A DNA stretch of 64,000 nt from Rhodobacterales bacterium (lineage in GTDB: Bacteria > Pseudomonadota > Alphaproteobacteria > Rhodobacterales > Rhodobacteraceae): contig JBBQHC010000002.1 in NCBI GenBank assembly GCA_038323615.1, positions 5,015-69,014 on the forward strand, read 5' to 3'. Both the position numbers and the translations under genes were made by a program. This document shows, piece after piece, positions 1,489 to 52,854 of the stretch. The first letter of the stretch is position 1, and each line of letters starts with the position of its first letter. Under the pieces are notes generated by a model. It had not been told where the DNA came from. It searched no databases and saw nothing but the letters and a program-made list of their open reading frames with translations.

Positions 1489-1514
1489 GTAAGATGGGTT
1501 CAAACCCATCCTAC
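1489..1514. repeat. REP palindrome (GTAAGATGGGTTCAAACCCATCCTAC)
   Basis: Near-perfect 26-nt palindrome in the gap between two minus-strand genes. It belongs to the same family as the hairpins flanking the RAYT gene at 43.2-43.9 kb. Confidence 0.75.
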
Positions 1515-42128: not shown

Positions 42129-42638
42129 TCAACTCTCGCTTAATGCGACCTTCATGTCCTTGACCAGATAGATCACCTCGCCGTCCGCCTCGACCCGGCC
42201 ATCGGCGACGCCCATCGTCAGGCGGCGGGATTGGATCGCCTTGGTGAAATCGACGTGGTAGGTCAGCAGCTTGCGGTCAGGGCGGACCATCCCGGTCAGC
42301 TTGACCTCGCCCACGCCAAGGGCATAACCGCGCCCCTGCCAGCCGCGCCAGCCGAGGTTGAAGCCGGTCAGTTGCCAGAGGCCGTCGAGGCCCAGACAGC
42401 CGGGCATGATCGGGTTGCCGGGGAAATGGCAGGCGAAAAACCACAGGTCTGGCGCAATGTCGAATTCGGCCGTCACATGCCCCTTGCCGTGCGCCCCGCC
42501 ATCGGCGGATATGTCGGTGATCCGGTCCATCATCAGCATCGGCGGTTCGGGCAATTGGGCGTTGCCGGGGCCGAAAAGTTCGCCGCGGGCACATTGTAGA
42601 AGGGCGTCGCGGTCAAAGCTGTTGGGGTAGGTGGCCAT
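42129..42638 (-). CDS. fabA: 3-hydroxydecanoyl-ACP dehydratase/isomerase
   Basis: Start set at ATG 42638 (169 aa). [24 protein letters not shown] active-site region. Confidence 0.9.
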
Positions 42639-42796
42639 GCGTTGTCTTGTCCCGTATCGGTGCGAAATCGTCATCATTCATCGTCTAGCACCCTGATGTA
42701 AATAAGGGCAAGGGCGCTGGCCCCGCGCCGGTCTTGGTGGGATCAGGCACGATTCCATTTGAAACAGGGGCGAAATGCCCGATATGTTGACGCAGC

Positions 42797-43231
42797 ATGA
42801 ACGTCCAAGTGAACCCATCGCCCAGTGCGGCCGATCGCAGCACCGACTGGCTGGCCCGCGCCAACCTGCGCCCGACCCGGCAGCGGGTGGCCTTGGCGAC
42901 GTTGCTGGTAGGCGACGGCTGCGACCGGCATGTGACGGCGGAATGGCTGTTCGACGCCGCCAGTCGCGCCGGCGAACAGGTCTCGCTGGCGACGGTTTAC
43001 AACACGCTCAAGGCGTTCTGCGACGCCGGGCTGATGCGCGAGATCACGGTGGACGGATCGAAAAGCTATTTCGATACCAATATGTCGGATCATCCGCATT
43101 TCTATTGGGAAGATACTGCGCAACTGACCGACGCCCCGGCTGACCAGCTTGAGATCGCGCGGTTGCCGCAAGTGCCCGAGGGGGCCGAGATCGCGGCGGT
43201 CGATGTGGTGATCCGGCTGCGGCGAACCTGA
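42797..43231 (+). CDS. irr: Fur-family iron response regulator
   Basis: 144 aa Fur-family fold (LRPTRQRVALATLL...SLATVYNTLKAF). It lacks the C-terminal CxxC pairs and is divergent from fabA, as in other alphaproteobacteria. Confidence 0.75.
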   Translation: MNVQVNPSPSAADRSTDWLARANLRPTRQRVALATLLVGDGCDRHVTAEWLFDAASRAGEQVSLATVYNTLKAFCDAGLMREITVDGSKSYFDTNMSDHPHFYWEDTAQLTDAPADQLEIARLPQVPEGAEIAAVDVVIRLRRT

Positions 43232-43237
43232 CGCGCG

Positions 43238-43302
43238 GGATGGGTCGAGGCCCATCTTACCTTTTGGATTTTCGCACATCGCAAGCTGGGTCTTAACCCA
43301 GC
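43238..43302. repeat. REP hairpins on the left flank of RAYT
   Basis: GGATGGGTCGAGGCCCATCTTAC (43238-43260) and GCTGGGTCTTAACCCAGC (43285-43302). Confidence 0.8.
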
Positions 43303-43331
43303 CTTAACCACGCGCCCCGCAATCTGCCGAC

Positions 43332-43880
43332 ATGACAGCATACCGGCGCCTTTACATCCCCGGCGGGACCTTCTTTTTCACGGTGCGGCTGGCGGATCGC
43401 CGATCCGACCTGCTGGTCGCCCGCATCACCCTGCTGCGCGACTGTTTTGCCGCGGCCCAGGCCCGCTGGCCGTTCAGCATCGACGCCGCCGTGGTCCTGC
43501 CCGATCACCTGCACATGATCTGGACGCTGCCACCGGGGGACAGCGATTTTTCCGCCCGCTGGCGGCTGATCAAGGCGGCGTTCTCGCGCCATGTCGATGG
43601 ACCCGCGCACCTGCCGCCTTCGCTGGCGCGGCGCGGCGAAAAGGGGATCTGGCAGCGCCGGTTCTGGGAACACGCGATCCGGGACGATGCCGACTATGAC
43701 GCGCATCACCGCCTGATCCTGCAGGCCCCGGTGCAGGCCGGGCTGGTGGCGCGGGTGCAGGACTGGCCATATGCGTCGGTGCATCGCGATTTGCGGCGCG
43801 GGATGACGCTGCCGCAGGGGGCGGTGGCGGGGTTTGCGGGGCGCGATGGGTCAAGACCCATCTTACGCCACGCCGGGTAA
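43332..43880 (+). mobile_element. REP-associated tyrosine transposase (RAYT, IS200/IS605 Y1 family)
   Basis: 182 aa with a YRRLYIPGGTFFFT N-terminus, the HUH motif LPDHLHMIW, and the C-terminal Tyr-helix region (YDAHHRLILQAPVQAGLVARVQDWPYASV). It is flanked by REP palindromes, and the last ~12 codons run into the right-hand REP. Confidence 0.85.
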
Positions 43881-43897
43881 GTCGGGTTTTGAACCCG
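43845..43897. repeat. REP hairpins on the right flank of RAYT
   Basis: GATGGGTCAAGACCCATCTTAC (43845-43866) and GTAAG-TCGGGTTTTGAACCCG (43877-43897). Confidence 0.8.
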
Positions 43898-44186
43898 GGC
43901 TGCGCAAAGGCAGCGCGGTTGCATGGCGAAATCGTTTAGTTACAGGAGGCAGAATCCGCTGATTGTCCGGCGCGGCGAAACCGAAAGTAATATGAATGCG
44001 ACCAATGCAAGCGGTCGCCATCCCGTAACGCGGAAAGGCTTTCAACTGATTCGCAATTCGCCCCAAAATTGGGCGATTTGCGATCTGGCTTTTTCCATCA
44101 AAAGTAGTTCCGCGCGAGCGGTTCGGGTTCGCACGAAAACACCTCGGTTCGGAGCGAACTGCGATTTGTTCGAAAGTCATTCCGCT

Positions 44187-45062
44187 TTAGAACCACTGCC
44201 CGGGCTCCATCAACCCCAGATCAAGCAGTTGCTGCGAATGCCAGGTGAACGGGGCGGAATTGTGCCATTTGAAGGTGTGGATATCGAAGGTCGAACCGGG
44301 GTTGCGCTTTAGCGCCTTGGCGGTGCGGAACGAACAGATCGCTGCCGTCAGATTGTGGTGCCAGGGGCAGGCGTAGGTGTTGTATTCGGGGTCGTTGAAC
44401 GTGTGGTCGGCCCGGATTTTCAGCCCCGGCTTGGCCCGAAACATCGAGACCCGGTCGATCCGGCGTCGCGGTGCCGGGATATGTTCCTCGAACCGCCAAC
44501 GCAGGCCGCCAAAGAAATCCAGTTGACGTTCGCGCGGCTTGTTCTTTTCGTCGTTGCGGGCCAGCGCGTAATAGCCTGATTTGTCCAGATGCGCGTCGTC
44601 CAGCGACACTGCACCGGGGTGCTGCCCGAGATCGCCGGCGTAGAGGTCGATTACATAGGTCAGCACCGCGTCGCGGCGTTCTTCGACCATGAACTGCACC
44701 ATCTCGCCGACACTGCGGTGTTCGCTGAACGGATAAAACAGGTATTCGGCGTTGAAGCAGTAATAGAACCAGACCCCGGGTGCGGCCGCGATGACGCCAT
44801 TCACCACCTGCTCGAACGCGTGGTCACCCTGCATATCGCAGTCAACGCGTGTCACCAACGGCGTGACCCGGTCAGGAAACACGATTTCGGGCGAGGCAAA
44901 GGCGATCAGTTTGGCGAACCCGATGTCGGCATGGTGGCGGATCGTGGTTTCGATCTCGGTTGCGTCTTCGACCAGAATCAGGGCGACCGGGCCCTTGGCC
45001 AGATCGCCGCGCCCGTCCGCAAGAAAGGATTTGAGTGAGCCGTAGCGTGCCATCGGGTCCAT
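44187..45062 (-). CDS. hypothetical protein (291 aa)
   Basis: Long ORF with host-like codon bias and no motif I recognise. Confidence 0.7.
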   Translation of the reverse strand: MDPMARYGSLKSFLADGRGDLAKGPVALILVEDATEIETTIRHHADIGFAKLIAFASPEIVFPDRVTPLVTRVDCDMQGDHAFEQVVNGVIAAAPGVWFYYCFNAEYLFYPFSEHRSVGEMVQFMVEERRDAVLTYVIDLYAGDLGQHPGAVSLDDAHLDKSGYYALARNDEKNKPRERQLDFFGGLRWRFEEHIPAPRRRIDRVSMFRAKPGLKIRADHTFNDPEYNTYACPWHHNLTAAICSFRTAKALKRNPGSTFDIHTFKWHNSAPFTWHSQQLLDLGLMEPGQWF

Positions 45063-45127
45063 CGTTCAGCCAATAGGCGCAGAATCGGTTAATTCGGCGT
45101 GCATTGCAAGCCGCCGCCCCGGTTGCT

Positions 45128-45228
45128 AAAGCGGTTCAGGTTTTGATGGAACCACCCGGATCGGAAATCGGGTTCGCGCAAAGCGAGAGGCAGCGAATTT
45201 CGATTCCGTTGAAACCTGCACCGCACTG
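45128..45228. repeat. ~100-nt palindromic element, copy B (core AAGCGAGAGGCAGCGAAT)
   Basis: Outer inverted repeat GCGGTTCAGGTTT.../...AAACCTGCACCGC and the same 18-nt core as 28600-28617. Lies just upstream of miaB. Confidence 0.65.
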
Positions 45229-45257
45229 ACCAAACACCGACCCGACGCCAAAGGACC

Positions 45258-46571
45258 ATGCCGCCCCTGCCCGCCCCCAAAAAGCTGTTCATCAAGACTT
45301 ACGGTTGCCAGATGAACGTCTATGACAGCGAACGCATGGCCGAGGCGCTGAGCGGGCAAGGTTATACCCTGACCGACAGTCAGGACAGCGCCGACATGAT
45401 CCTGCTGAACACTTGCCACATCCGCGAAAAGGCATCGGAAAAGGTGTTTTCCGAACTCGGCCGCCTGAAACCGTTGAAAGACGCCCGCCCCGATCTGAAA
45501 ATCGGCGTCGCCGGCTGCGTTGCGCAGGCCGAAGGGGCCGAGATCATGCGCCGCGCCCCGGTCGTCGATCTGGTCGTCGGTCCGCAAAGCTATCACCGCC
45601 TGCCAGAAATGGCCGCCGCTGTGGCCCAAGGCGGGCGCGCCCTCGACACCGATTTCCCGGTCGAGGATAAATTCGCCGTTCTGAAATCCCGCCCCAAGGC
45701 CGCGCGTGGCCCCAGTGCGTTTCTGACCGTGCAGGAAGGCTGCGACAAGTTCTGTGCCTTTTGCGTTGTCCCCTATACCCGCGGGTCCGAGGTCAGCCGC
45801 GCCGCAACCCGTGTGCTGGCCGAGGCCCGCGATCTGGTCGCCGCAGGGGTTCGTGACATCACCTTGCTGGGCCAGAACGTCAACGCCTACCACGGTCATG
45901 CCGGTGGCCTTGCCGGGTTAATCCGCGATCTGGCGGCCATCCCCGATTTGGCGCGGATCCGCTACACCACCAGCCACCCCAATGACATGGACGCCGCCCT
46001 GATCGCGACGCATGGCGACTGCGAAAAACTGATGCCTTATCTGCACTTGCCGGTGCAGTCGGGCAGCGACCGGATCTTGCGGGCGATGAACCGCAAGCAC
46101 ACGGCGGCGCAGTATATCGACCTGATCGGGCGGGTCCGCGATGCCCGCCCCGACATCCTGCTGTCGGGCGATTTCATCGTCGGGTTTCCGGGCGAGACCG
46201 ACGCCGATTTCGACGCGACCCTCGATCTGATCCGCACGGTGGGCTACGGCATGGCCTATACGTTCAAATATTCCGGCCGCCCCGGCACTCCGGCGGCGGA
46301 AAAACCGCAACTGCCCGATTCGGTGGCGGACGCCCGGTTGCAGGCGGTGCAGGCGCTGGTCACGACCCAGCAAAAGGCCGCGCAAGATGCGATGGTCGGC
46401 AACGTGGTACAGGTGTTGTTCGAAAAACCGGGCCGTCAGCCAGGACAGATGGGCGGCAAGTCCGAACACCTGCACGCAGTCCATGTCACCGACCATCCGG
46501 CGATCGGCAGCATTGCGCCCGTCAGGATAATCGCCAGCGGGACGAACTCGCTGGCGGGCGTTATGGTGTGA
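45258..46571 (+). CDS. miaB: tRNA-i6A37 methylthiotransferase
   Basis: The UPF0004 domain ([10 protein letters not shown]), the radical-SAM [15 protein letters not shown] motif and a TRAM domain. Confidence 0.95.
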
Positions 46572-52726: not shown

Positions 52727-52854
52727 GGATGGGTTGAAACCCATCCTACATCCCGGTTTCTTTTGGCCCTAAATATTCCGGGGGGCCCGAAGGGCGGGGG
52801 CAGCGCCCCCTCCAGACCCCCCGGCGATAGGGGTAAGGTGGGTTTCAACCCACC
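52727..52854. repeat. mosaic intergenic element, copy 5 (two REP palindromes, GC hairpin, AT-rich block)
   Basis: GGATGGGTTGAAACCCATCCTAC (52727-52749), reversed AT-rich block TTTCTTTTGGCCCTAAATATTCCGGGG, GGGGGCAGCGCCCCC (52796-52810), GTAAGGTGGGTTTCAACCCACC (52833-52854). Confidence 0.8.

What the first reader, a model, noticed from the sequence alone, without database searches (positions are those of the whole stretch)
43238..43897. RAYT transposase flanked by its REP palindromes
The 182-aa ORF has the HUH motif (LPDHLHMIW) and the C-terminal Tyr helix of REP-associated tyrosine transposases. It is bracketed by GGATGGGTCGAGGCCCATCTTAC (left) and GATGGGTCAAGACCCATCTTAC (right), plus second hairpins on each side. 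The gene's last codons run into the right REP. This is the likely source or maintainer of the REP copies scattered through the window. It sits between irr and an AT-rich non-coding stretch.
Basis: partly seen in the sequence, partly recalled or inferred. Interest (0 to 1): 0.6.

Follow-up and report, generated by a model that had tools for sequence, protein, structure and literature searches.

The report
Tyrosine-less RAYT inside its REP hairpins
The gene is a true relative of the REP-moving tyrosine transposases and still sits between its own REP hairpins, but it belongs to a conserved Rhodobacterales lineage that has lost the cutting tyrosine and two metal-binding residues, so it probably binds REPs rather than moving them.

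Summary
The sequence features are real. The 182-aa ORF (43332-43880) matches the RAYT model NF047646 (175 bits, cut-off 80) and E. coli TnpA_REP (4ER8, E 1.9e-42). REP hairpins with a GTAAG head bracket it. The genome holds 42 such REPs; the reversed-pattern control finds 0.

One claim fails. The "Tyr helix" has no catalytic tyrosine: E. coli Y115/N119/H123 align to L128/A132/A136.

This is a clade trait, not an error. Twenty-five Rhodobacterales homologues form one 100/100-supported clade, and none keeps N119. One of them keeps Tyr and six keep the first HUH histidine. All 66 canonical RAYTs keep every catalytic residue except one N119H. The DNA-contact residues stay conserved, and dN/dS is 0.06-0.14.

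In 22 of the 25 the gene lies in the same slot, irr -> RAYT -> <- 291-aa gene. Relatives without it have an 18-38 bp empty site there. Among 41 relatives, this REP family occurs only in genomes that carry the clade.

Best reading (0.6): a domesticated REP-binding protein that does not cleave. I found no paper describing this. The scan has noted tyrosine-less RAYTs before on other DNA, including one unchecked note that appears to be this clade.

The parts
42797..43231 (+). irr (iron response regulator), the upstream neighbour. It is conserved with the RAYT-like gene in 22 of 25 clade loci.
   Evidence: NF045678/NF045677 at 209 bits, PF01475; synteny; the only promoter-like site in the region lies at 42759-42788, upstream of irr.
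43239..43260 (-). Left REP. Read on the - strand it is GTAAG + GATGGGCctcgACCCATC.
   Evidence: A REP in the same position and orientation is present in most orthologous loci.
43281..43302 (+). Left second hairpin, a degenerate REP with head GCAAG (GCAAG-CTGGGTcttaACCCAG-C). Together with the left REP it forms a heads-inward doublet.
43304..43309 (+). TTAACC motif about 25 nt upstream of the ATG. It is conserved upstream of both tyrosine-less and canonical Rhodobacterales RAYT genes. Its function is unknown; it may be a promoter or operator element.
   Evidence: Read by eye in the flanks printed; not tested statistically.
43332..43880 (+). RAYT/TnpA_REP homologue, 182 aa. H59-L-H61 is kept. 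Y115 is replaced by L128 (43713-43715), N119 by A132 (43725-43727) and H123 by A136 (43737-43739). Residues beyond about 160 are encoded by the right REP and are modelled with low confidence.
   Evidence: NF047646 at 175.5 bits; 4ER8 at E 1.9e-42 with residue alignment; model pLDDT 85.5, best fold match 4er8_A with TM 0.79/0.86; residue tables; dN/dS 0.108 against G002.
43845..43866 (-). Right REP (GTAAG-GATGGGTcttgACCCATC on the - strand), lying inside the 3' end of the ORF. It encodes ...DGSRPIL...
   Evidence: The same in-frame REP is seen in the G002 and Marivivens orthologues.
43877..43898 (+). Right second hairpin (GTAAG-TCGGGTTttgAACCCGG). Its GTAAG head supplies the gene's TAA stop. 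It corresponds to the downstream REP(+) conserved in Yoonia, Loktanella and Octadecabacter loci.
1489..1514 (.). Dispersed copy of the same REP family, a double-headed palindrome (GTAAGATGGGTTCAAACCCATCCTAC).
52728..52854 (.). Dispersed REP(-)...REP(+) doublet with a 105-nt start-to-start spacing, enclosing other repeat modules (TTCTTTTGGCCC..., GGGGGCAGCGCCCCC).
   Evidence: It resembles the REP-bounded element of Marivivens.

Best explanation
The ORF descends from a REP-associated tyrosine transposase that inserted, with its flanking REPs, between the convergent genes irr and a 291-aa gene in an ancestor of several Rhodobacterales genera. It has been inherited vertically at that spot since.

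Early in this lineage the active site degenerated. The two alphaD metal ligands (N119, H123) became Ala in all members. The nucleophilic Tyr was then replaced by Leu, Phe, Val or Met in almost all members, and the first HUH histidine was lost in many.

The fold, the hairpin-binding residues and the residues that grip the GTAG-type head were kept under strong purifying selection. The protein therefore most likely still recognises single-stranded REP hairpins with a GTAAG/GTAGG head. It cannot make the covalent 5'-phosphotyrosine intermediate, so it does not cut or transpose them.

Its selected role would then be a non-catalytic REP-binding one. Candidates are modulating REP structures in DNA or RNA near gene ends, or controlling REP stability.

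Shown here: homology, loss of the residues, clade-wide conservation, synteny, and REP co-occurrence. Inferred: DNA binding, lack of cleavage, and the cellular role.
For: Homology:
- NF047646 at 175 bits.
- 4ER8 at E 1.9e-42 over residues 1-159.
- Fold TM 0.79/0.86.

Active-site loss:
- Y115/N119/H123 align to L128/A132/A136.
- The roles of these residues are taken from PMC3479197. Y-to-F mutants are dead in PMC8266576.

Clade trait:
- Among 25 clade members, 0 keep N119, 1 keeps H123, 1 keeps Y115 and 6 keep H59, while all 25 keep H61.
- All 66 canonical RAYTs keep all five residues, except one N119H.
- The only core columns that discriminate the two groups are N119A and H123A.
- Q95, W99, R78, K81 and R97 are kept in 24-25 of 25 members; E100 and R104 in 22 of 25.

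Single origin: the clade is supported 100/100.

Selection: dN/dS is 0.06-0.14 in seven within-clade pairs, 0.27 against Marivivens; one further pair was saturated at synonymous sites. Against G002 dS is 0.49 and dN/dS 0.108.

Synteny: fabA-irr-RAYT-dn291-miaB in 22 of 25 loci. Five relatives have empty irr/dn291 sites of 18-38 bp.

REP link:
- Flanking REPs are present in most orthologous loci, and the stems co-vary between genera.
- The REP family was found in 5 of 7 relatives that carry the clade. In the 34 without it, it was absent or at 3 or fewer hits.
- Marivivens marinus, Yoonia sediminilitoris and Loktanella agnita have 180, 94 and 100 REPs with the tyrosine-less gene as their only RAYT homologue.
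- In Marivivens the REP ends of a dispersed 190-bp element are 93-96% identical while its interior is 77% identical. That fits selection on the REPs themselves.
Against: - No biochemical data. DNA binding is inferred from conserved contact residues only.
- REP occupancy of orthologous intergenic sites differs between genera. At least one site (C57:2960) carries a REP doublet in G000 and G002 but is empty (11 nt) in Marivivens and Yoonia. So REPs were gained or lost within the lineage that carries the degenerate gene. That would be easier to explain if some mobilising activity persisted.
- Each genome's dominant REP stem variant matches the copies that flank its own gene, which also suggests turnover.
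- The order of Tyr loss and these REP gains is unresolved. Ten of the 120 closest homologues still keep Tyr while lacking N119/H123.
- G000 is 89.7% complete, so a canonical RAYT could be unassembled. G001, of the same genus, has three.
Confidence: 0.6

Rival explanations
1. It is still the working mobiliser or maintainer of the REPs. It would use non-canonical chemistry, such as hydrolytic nicking with the remaining His/Glu residues or a nucleophile supplied in trans.
For: - Strict co-occurrence of this REP family with the clade.
- Large REP populations rich in identical copies in genomes whose only RAYT homologue is the tyrosine-less one: 180 in Marivivens, 94 and 100 in Yoonia and Loktanella.
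- Genus-specific REP stem variants that match the gene's own flanks.
- Site gains or losses between genera, and one doublet present in G000 but absent in G002.
Against: - Y115, N119 and H123 are all gone, and sister lineages also lose H59.
- Y-to-F alone abolishes activity in three RAYTs (PMC8266576).
- No clade-specific conserved replacement residue appears anywhere in the core.
- REP positions are mostly shared between G000 and G002 despite dS of 0.49. About 14 of the 17 loci that could be aligned across the site keep a REP there, so turnover is slow.
Confidence: 0.17
2. The REPs are, or were, moved in trans by canonical RAYTs that come and go in these genomes. The tyrosine-less protein would be a binding-competent, cleavage-dead competitor, that is, an inhibitor or regulator of REP mobilisation.
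For: - Canonical RAYTs coexist with the tyrosine-less gene in G001 (3 copies), G008, Octadecabacter G041 and G043.
- Their REPs have a related GTAGG head and similar GTGGGT stems.
Against: - The canonical copies are flanked by their own, different REP types.
- G002 (96% complete), Marivivens, Y. sediminilitoris and L. agnita have no canonical copy yet keep 36-180 REPs.
- Genomes that have only canonical RAYTs (G011, G012) have 0 hits to this REP pattern.
Confidence: 0.13
3. It is a decaying relic, a pseudogene in the making with no function. The REPs would be fossils.
For: - Catalytic residues are lost.
- G023's copy has two in-frame stops.
- The two clade members in genomes without this REP family (G006, G007) sit on very long branches, 1.37 and 2.19.
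Against: - dN/dS of 0.06-0.14.
- An intact ORF in the same chromosomal slot across several genera.
- 34 invariant columns in 38 homologues.
- The changes are confined to the active site.
Confidence: 0.05

Closest known systems
E. coli TnpA_REP / RAYT (YafM; PDB 4ER8), group 2 RAYT, class 2 of the TnpA_Y1 superfamily; the REPtron
   Same: - Same fold, with about 44% identity over 159 residues.
- HUH motif at the same positions.
- Conserved hairpin contacts and GTAG-head contacts.
- A single-copy chromosomal gene bracketed by inverted REPs whose family is dispersed in the genome.
   Different: - Nucleophile Y115 is Leu; metal ligands N119 and H123 are Ala.
- The REP head is mostly GTAAG rather than GTAG.
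- The C-terminal tail is not homologous to the regulatory tail that carries E161. Here it is the translation of a REP and is modelled as disordered.
Canonical RAYTs of Rhodobacterales (e.g. Sulfitobacter, Roseovarius, Sinisalibacter; loci L036, L042, L050, L037)
   Same: - 45-60% identity.
- REP doublets flank the gene.
- A TTAACC motif lies upstream of the start.
   Different: - They keep H59, H61, Y115, N119 and H123.
- They lie at various loci, never at irr.
- Their REPs have GTAGG heads and other stems and loops.
IS200/IS605 TnpA (PF01797, NF033573)
   Same: Distant HUH/Y1 fold relatives (Foldseek E 1e-4 to 1e-6).
   Different: - Below both curated thresholds: 15.8 bits against 23, and 17.2 against 55.
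- Single copy, no TnpB partner seen beside the gene, no catalytic Tyr.
RAYT loss-of-function cases in the literature (the N. gonorrhoeae frameshifted RAYT with decaying REPINs; Bertels and Rainey, bioRxiv 10.1101/2021.07.10.451892)
   Same: A RAYT that can no longer act as a transposase, in a genome that still holds its REPs.
   Different: There the gene is broken by a frameshift and the REPINs decay. Here the ORF is intact and under purifying selection across genera, and the REP family persists only where the gene does.

Membership tests
RAYT / TnpA_REP (REP-associated tyrosine transposase) | Sequence and fold homology to the family | tested here: met
   NF047646 at 175.5 bits against a cut-off of 80; 4ER8 at E 1.9e-42; Foldseek 4er8_A at E 8.9e-20, TM 0.79/0.86.
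RAYT / TnpA_REP (REP-associated tyrosine transposase) | HUH motif (two metal-binding histidines) | tested here: met
   H59-L-H61 is present in the window protein. In the clade as a whole H59 is kept in only 6 of 25 members, while H61 is kept in all 25.
RAYT / TnpA_REP (REP-associated tyrosine transposase) | Catalytic tyrosine on helix alphaD (E. coli Y115) | tested here: not met
   It aligns to Leu128. The same is true in the same-genus orthologue G002. Only 1 of 25 clade members keeps Tyr, against 66 of 66 canonical RAYTs.
RAYT / TnpA_REP (REP-associated tyrosine transposase) | AlphaD metal ligands (E. coli N119, H123) | tested here: not met
   They are Ala132 and Ala136. N119 is kept in 0 of 25 clade members and H123 in 1 of 25. 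In canonical RAYTs the figures are 65 of 66 and 66 of 66.
RAYT / TnpA_REP (REP-associated tyrosine transposase) | Single-copy gene flanked by inverted REPs of a family dispersed in the same genome | tested here: met
   One copy in G000. The flanks are REP(-)...gene...REP(+). There are 42 genomic copies against 0 in the control.
RAYT / TnpA_REP (REP-associated tyrosine transposase) | Cleavage and strand transfer of the cognate REP ssDNA | not testable with these tools
   This needs in-vitro assays such as those in PMC8266576.
IS200/IS605 TnpA (Pfam Y1_Tnp PF01797) | Profile match above the curated threshold | tested here: not met
   PF01797 at 15.8 bits against 23; NF033573 at 17.2 bits against 55.
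Domesticated, catalytically inactive transposase derivative (pseudoenzyme) | Catalytic residues lost while the rest stays under purifying selection, with vertical inheritance at a fixed locus | tested here: met
   Residue table; dN/dS of 0.06-0.14; synteny in 22 of 25 loci and empty sites in relatives; monophyly at 100/100.

The most novel reading that the evidence does not exclude
In this Rhodobacterales lineage the REP/RAYT partnership has outlived transposition. A RAYT with no nucleophile and a degraded metal site is kept by selection together with its own REP family. The REP family persists, and even turns over, only where this protein is present. That would mean the long-sought host-level function of RAYT-REP systems lies in REP binding, on structured DNA or RNA at gene ends, and not in DNA cleavage. 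Alternatively, REPs can spread by a route that needs RAYT binding but not its tyrosine.
Probability: 0.35. Interest if true: 0.75.

Novelty: new variant of a known kind. Interest (0 to 1): 0.58.

Why it matters
RAYTs are the textbook "domesticated" bacterial transposases, but what they do for the cell is unknown. Every model so far assumes an intact HUH/Tyr active site. The large survey of the superfamily deliberately discarded sequences that lack these motifs as non-functional (PMC6006769).

Here a large clade has lost exactly those residues. It is syntenic and under strong purifying selection. At least 118 of the 120 closest sequence clusters belong to it. It keeps the REP-contact residues, its own flanking REPs and a genome-wide REP family.

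That gives a natural separation-of-function mutant. If the protein binds REPs without cutting, the selected function of the system can be studied free of transposition, in cultured marine bacteria such as Marivivens marinus, Yoonia sediminilitoris and Loktanella agnita.

It also matters for annotation. These proteins pass the NCBIfam cut-off and are named "REP-associated tyrosine transposase" although they have no catalytic tyrosine.

Tried and rejected
This reflects the divergence of RAYTs from IS200, not absence of homology.
- **A second RAYT in the genome.** tblastn and the family search found none.
- **Two pairs of direct REPs about 750 bp apart** (C6:9932/10674 and C87:10022/10776) looked like further REP-bracketed cassettes. 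They enclose ordinary genes, a glyoxalase-fold gene and, by eye, a NYN-like gene. Rejected as RAYT remnants.
- **k-mer census.** This REP is not among the most abundant 16-mers. Other palindromic repeats are commoner.
- **Rfam** on 42600-45300: no hit at E <= 1.
- **Promoter scan:** no sigma-70-like site between irr and the gene. Own promoter versus read-through from irr is unresolved.
- **Polarising the G000-only REP doublet** (C75:12421) with outgroups failed, because the flanks were not found together in G008, G042 or G044.
- **Covariation between loss of REPs and loss of head-contact residues** (G006, G007) was considered. It is not clean: G002 has R104T yet keeps its REPs. I do not rely on it.
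- **Literature searches** for a tyrosine-less RAYT clade, or for RAYTs in roseobacters, found nothing relevant.

Full report
**1. What is in the sequence**

The region holds one long ORF, 43332-43880 on the + strand, 182 aa. Upstream on the same strand is irr (42797-43231; NF045678/NF045677 at 209 bits). Downstream, convergent, is a conserved 291-aa gene with no Pfam or NCBIfam match (44187-45062), followed by miaB.

- On the left are GATGGGTCGAGGCCCATCTTAC (43239-43260) and a degenerate copy in the opposite orientation (43281-43302, GCAAG-CTGGGTcttaACCCAG).
- On the right are GATGGGTCAAGACCCATCTTAC (43845-43866) and GTAAG-TCGGGTTttgAACCCGG (43877-43898).

All four fold as hairpins. For the left and right doublets on the two strands, the z-scores against shuffles run from -2.3 to -4.3. 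Read from the conserved 5' head, the unit is GTAAG followed by a 7-bp stem and a 4-nt loop. On both sides the two units face each other head to head.

The ORF reads through the right REP, and its TAA stop is the TAA of the GTAAG head of the last hairpin (43878-43880).

**2. Is it more than chance, and is the family dispersed?**

The degenerate palindrome occurs 6 times in the window against 0.01 expected. With the pattern GTARGRTGGRTNNNNAYCCAYC and up to 1 mismatch, the 3.24-Mb draft genome has 42 hits in 30 loci. The reversed-pattern control has none. A looser structural search gives 79 candidate GTAAG-like-headed hairpins, an unfiltered list with no chance control; the family members among them show compensatory stem variants such as AT..AT, GT..AC and GC..GC. 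Doublets are always arranged REP(-) then REP(+), heads inward. This is the same arrangement that encloses the gene. So the flanks belong to the dispersed family.

**3. Homology**

- The protein matches the RAYT-specific NCBIfam model NF047646 at 175.5 bits (cut-off 80) over residues 4-147.
- It matches E. coli TnpA_REP (PDB 4ER8) at E 1.9e-42 over residues 1-159.
- An AlphaFold model built on 38 homologues has pLDDT 85.5 and pTM 0.80. Its best structural match is 4er8_A (E 8.9e-20, TM 0.79/0.86).
- Pfam PF01797 is below threshold (15.8 bits against 23).
- It is the only RAYT homologue in the assembly, which is 89.7% complete.
- Residues beyond about 160 have pLDDT of 42-57. In this genus and in Marivivens they are simply the translation of the REP (...GSRPIL...).

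**4. The active site is gone**

In E. coli TnpA_REP the active site is Y115 plus H59/H61 of the HUH motif, N119 and H123 on helix alphaD, and E161 (PMC3479197). Y115F, and the equivalent Y130F and Y125F in two other RAYTs, abolish activity (PMC8266576).

The pairwise alignment puts E. coli HHVDYIYINPVKHG against the window's HHRLILQAPVQAG. So Y115 becomes L128, N119 becomes A132 and H123 becomes A136. H59 and H61 are kept. The same-genus orthologue in G002 (89% identity) has the same residues, so this is not a sequencing error.

**5. It is a clade trait under selection**

I collected 96 RAYT homologues from named genomes and from relatives. After dropping five duplicate, partial or aberrant rows, 25 of these carry a degenerate site and 66 are canonical.

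| Residue (E. coli numbering) | Degenerate clade (25) | Canonical RAYTs (66) |
|---|---|---|
| H59 | 6 | 66 |
| H61 | 25 | 66 |
| Y115 | 1 | 66 |
| N119 | 0 | 65 |
| H123 | 1 | 66 |

- The residues that contact the GTAG head (Q95, W99, E100, R104) and the hairpin (R78, K81, R97, K91) are conserved in both groups.
- Across the whole core, the only columns that discriminate the groups at 80% or more in each are N119A and H123A.
- In an ML tree the 25 form one clade with 100/100 support. All are Rhodobacterales: Marivivens, Octadecabacter, Flavimaricola, Yoonia, Loktanella, Ascidiaceihabitans, plus unnamed relatives.
- Of the 120 closest 90%-identity clusters in the big protein collection, 118 lack N119/H123 and ten of these still keep Tyr. 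Among the 150 best 50%-identity representatives, 61 are fully canonical and several dozen are degenerate.
- dN/dS over the first 150 codons is 0.06-0.14 for seven within-clade pairs and 0.27 for G000 against Marivivens; one further pair was saturated at synonymous sites. For G000 against G002, dN is 0.053, dS 0.49 and the ratio 0.108.

The pattern is this. The metal ligands were lost once at the base of the clade. Tyr and the first His were then lost repeatedly. Everything else was held. This is the pattern expected of a protein that stopped catalysing but kept another job.

**6. A fixed chromosomal gene**

In 22 of the 25 clade loci, and in two partial ones, the order is fabA <- irr -> RAYT -> <- 291-aa gene, miaB ->. 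No canonical RAYT lies there. Five family members without the gene (G024, G016, G020, G011, G006) have irr and the 291-aa gene back to back, with only 18-38 bp between them and no REP. So the REP-gene-REP unit is an insertion between two convergent genes that has since been inherited vertically. Three clade members (L006, L007, L073) lie elsewhere.

**7. The REP connection persists**

- Most orthologous loci have a REP upstream ([stem]CTTAC) and a REP downstream (GTAAG[stem], often supplying the stop codon). The stems differ between genera by compensatory changes: GATGGGT, GGTGGGT and GGTGGAT.
- REP counts with the same pattern are G000 42, G002 36, G008 147, G023 17, G001 9, Octadecabacter 54, Marivivens marinus 180, Yoonia sediminilitoris 94 and Loktanella agnita 100. 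Controls are 0.
- The last three genomes, and G002 (96% complete), have no other RAYT homologue.
- Among the 41 relatives, the family is present in 5 of the 7 genomes that carry a clade member. In the 34 others the count is 0, or 3 in G024. That includes genomes with only canonical RAYTs.
- The two clade-bearing genomes without the REPs (G006, G007) have the most divergent proteins (branch lengths 1.37 and 2.19) and no REP flanks.
- These genomes are related, so the counts are not independent tests.
- Canonical Rhodobacterales RAYTs are flanked by their own REP types, with GTAGG heads and other stems.

**8. Are the REPs still moving?**

The evidence is mixed.
- Of 29 G000 REP loci compared with G002, 17 could be aligned across the site and about 14 of those have a REP at the orthologous position. 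One doublet (C75:12421-12473) and one second REP (C178) are absent from G002.
- Across genera, occupancy differs at most of the eight sites examined. At C57:2960 the doublet is present in G000 and G002. The site is empty (11 nt) in Marivivens and Yoonia. In G008 it is occupied by the REP type that flanks G008's canonical RAYT.
- Hence REPs were gained or lost within the lineage that carries the degenerate gene. The order relative to the Tyr loss cannot be resolved, because the base of the clade is a polytomy and some members keep Tyr.
- In Marivivens a roughly 190-bp element bounded by inverted REPs occurs at 16 or more unrelated sites. Its REP ends are 93-96% identical pairwise against 77% for its interior. 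That fits selection on the REPs better than very recent copying.

**9. Reading**

The best-supported explanation (0.6) is a domesticated REP-binding descendant of a RAYT that no longer cuts DNA.

The rivals are:
- residual non-canonical mobilising activity (0.17);
- a cleavage-dead competitor or regulator of canonical RAYTs (0.13);
- a functionless relic (0.05), which the dN/dS values and the synteny contradict.

**10. What is known**

I found no paper describing a conserved tyrosine-less RAYT clade. Quentin et al. 2018 state that they removed sequences lacking the HuH or Y motifs as probably non-functional. Bertels and Rainey describe a frameshifted RAYT with decaying REPINs in N. gonorrhoeae, which is a different situation.

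Earlier notes of this scan report tyrosine-less RAYT relatives in other phyla. One unchecked first-reader note (e1-4179233) describes a 177-aa protein reading KLH and HMHLIRSAPLHAGLV. This matches the Yoonia-type members of this clade. What is distinctive here is that the degenerate gene is still embedded in its REP flanks and tied to a living REP family.

Noticed in passing
window 43901-44186 (core about 44026-44118): The lower-GC stretch downstream of the gene (53% GC) is specific to G000: G002 has only about 70 nt there. It contains a roughly 90-bp dispersed repeat with 18 other hits in the genome at 73-85% identity. The repeat carries the k-mer GCGAATTGCGATTC, which has 15 copies.
   Followed up: partly
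L139-L154 (Marivivens marinus, G042); compare window 52728-52854 and G000 C35:8752-8930: A roughly 190-bp MITE-like element bounded by inverted REPs, with internal hairpin modules (GAGGGGCTCTGCCCCTC, GGGGGGCGAAGCGCCCCC, TTCTTCTTTGGGT). It occurs at 16 or more unrelated sites in both orientations, with subfamilies that differ by 15-16-nt indels. Related half-elements occur in the window's genome.
   Followed up: partly
window 43304-43309, and the equivalent position in loci: A TTAACC (sometimes TTTACC) motif sits about 25-30 nt upstream of the start codon of both tyrosine-less and canonical RAYT genes of Rhodobacterales. It may be a promoter or autoregulatory element.
   Followed up: no
G000 C87:10017-10040 and C87:10771-10794; window 43877-43881: Several genes end with a TAA that is part of the GTAAG head of a REP. 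Two adjacent genes on C87 do so, and so does the RAYT gene itself in many genera. REP insertion at gene 3' ends seems to supply or replace stop codons.
   Followed up: no
G000 genome-wide: Other short repeat families are more abundant than the REP: the palindrome GGGGGCAGCGCCCCC (about 12 copies), TTCGCTGCCTCTCGC (11), CCCGCCGGAGGCTCCG (10), TTTTGGCCAAAA-containing units (9) and CACTTTGCCATAACAA (8). They often lie next to REPs in mosaic clusters.
   Followed up: no
L006 (G023:C90:6372-6890): The clade member in G023 lies outside the irr locus and has two in-frame stops (TGA, TAA). It is an apparent pseudogene in a genome with only 17 REPs of this family.
   Followed up: no
L174 (G008:C81) compared with G000 C57:2960-2981: The same intergenic spacer carries the tyrosine-less-type REP doublet in G000 and G002 but the GGCGGGG-type REP doublet (the type that flanks G008's canonical RAYT) in G008. 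It is empty in Marivivens and Yoonia. This looks like independent REP insertions into one spot.
   Followed up: partly
window 44187-45062 (- strand): The 291-aa convergent neighbour has no Pfam or NCBIfam match. Yet it is conserved (48-86% identity) next to miaB in 17 of the 41 relatives searched; two more hold weaker matches (35-38% identity).
   Followed up: no
L026, L031, L043, L033, L028, L029 (Yoonia/Loktanella): In six loci about 870 bp of extra sequence, probably another gene, lies between irr and the upstream REP of the RAYT-like gene.
   Followed up: no
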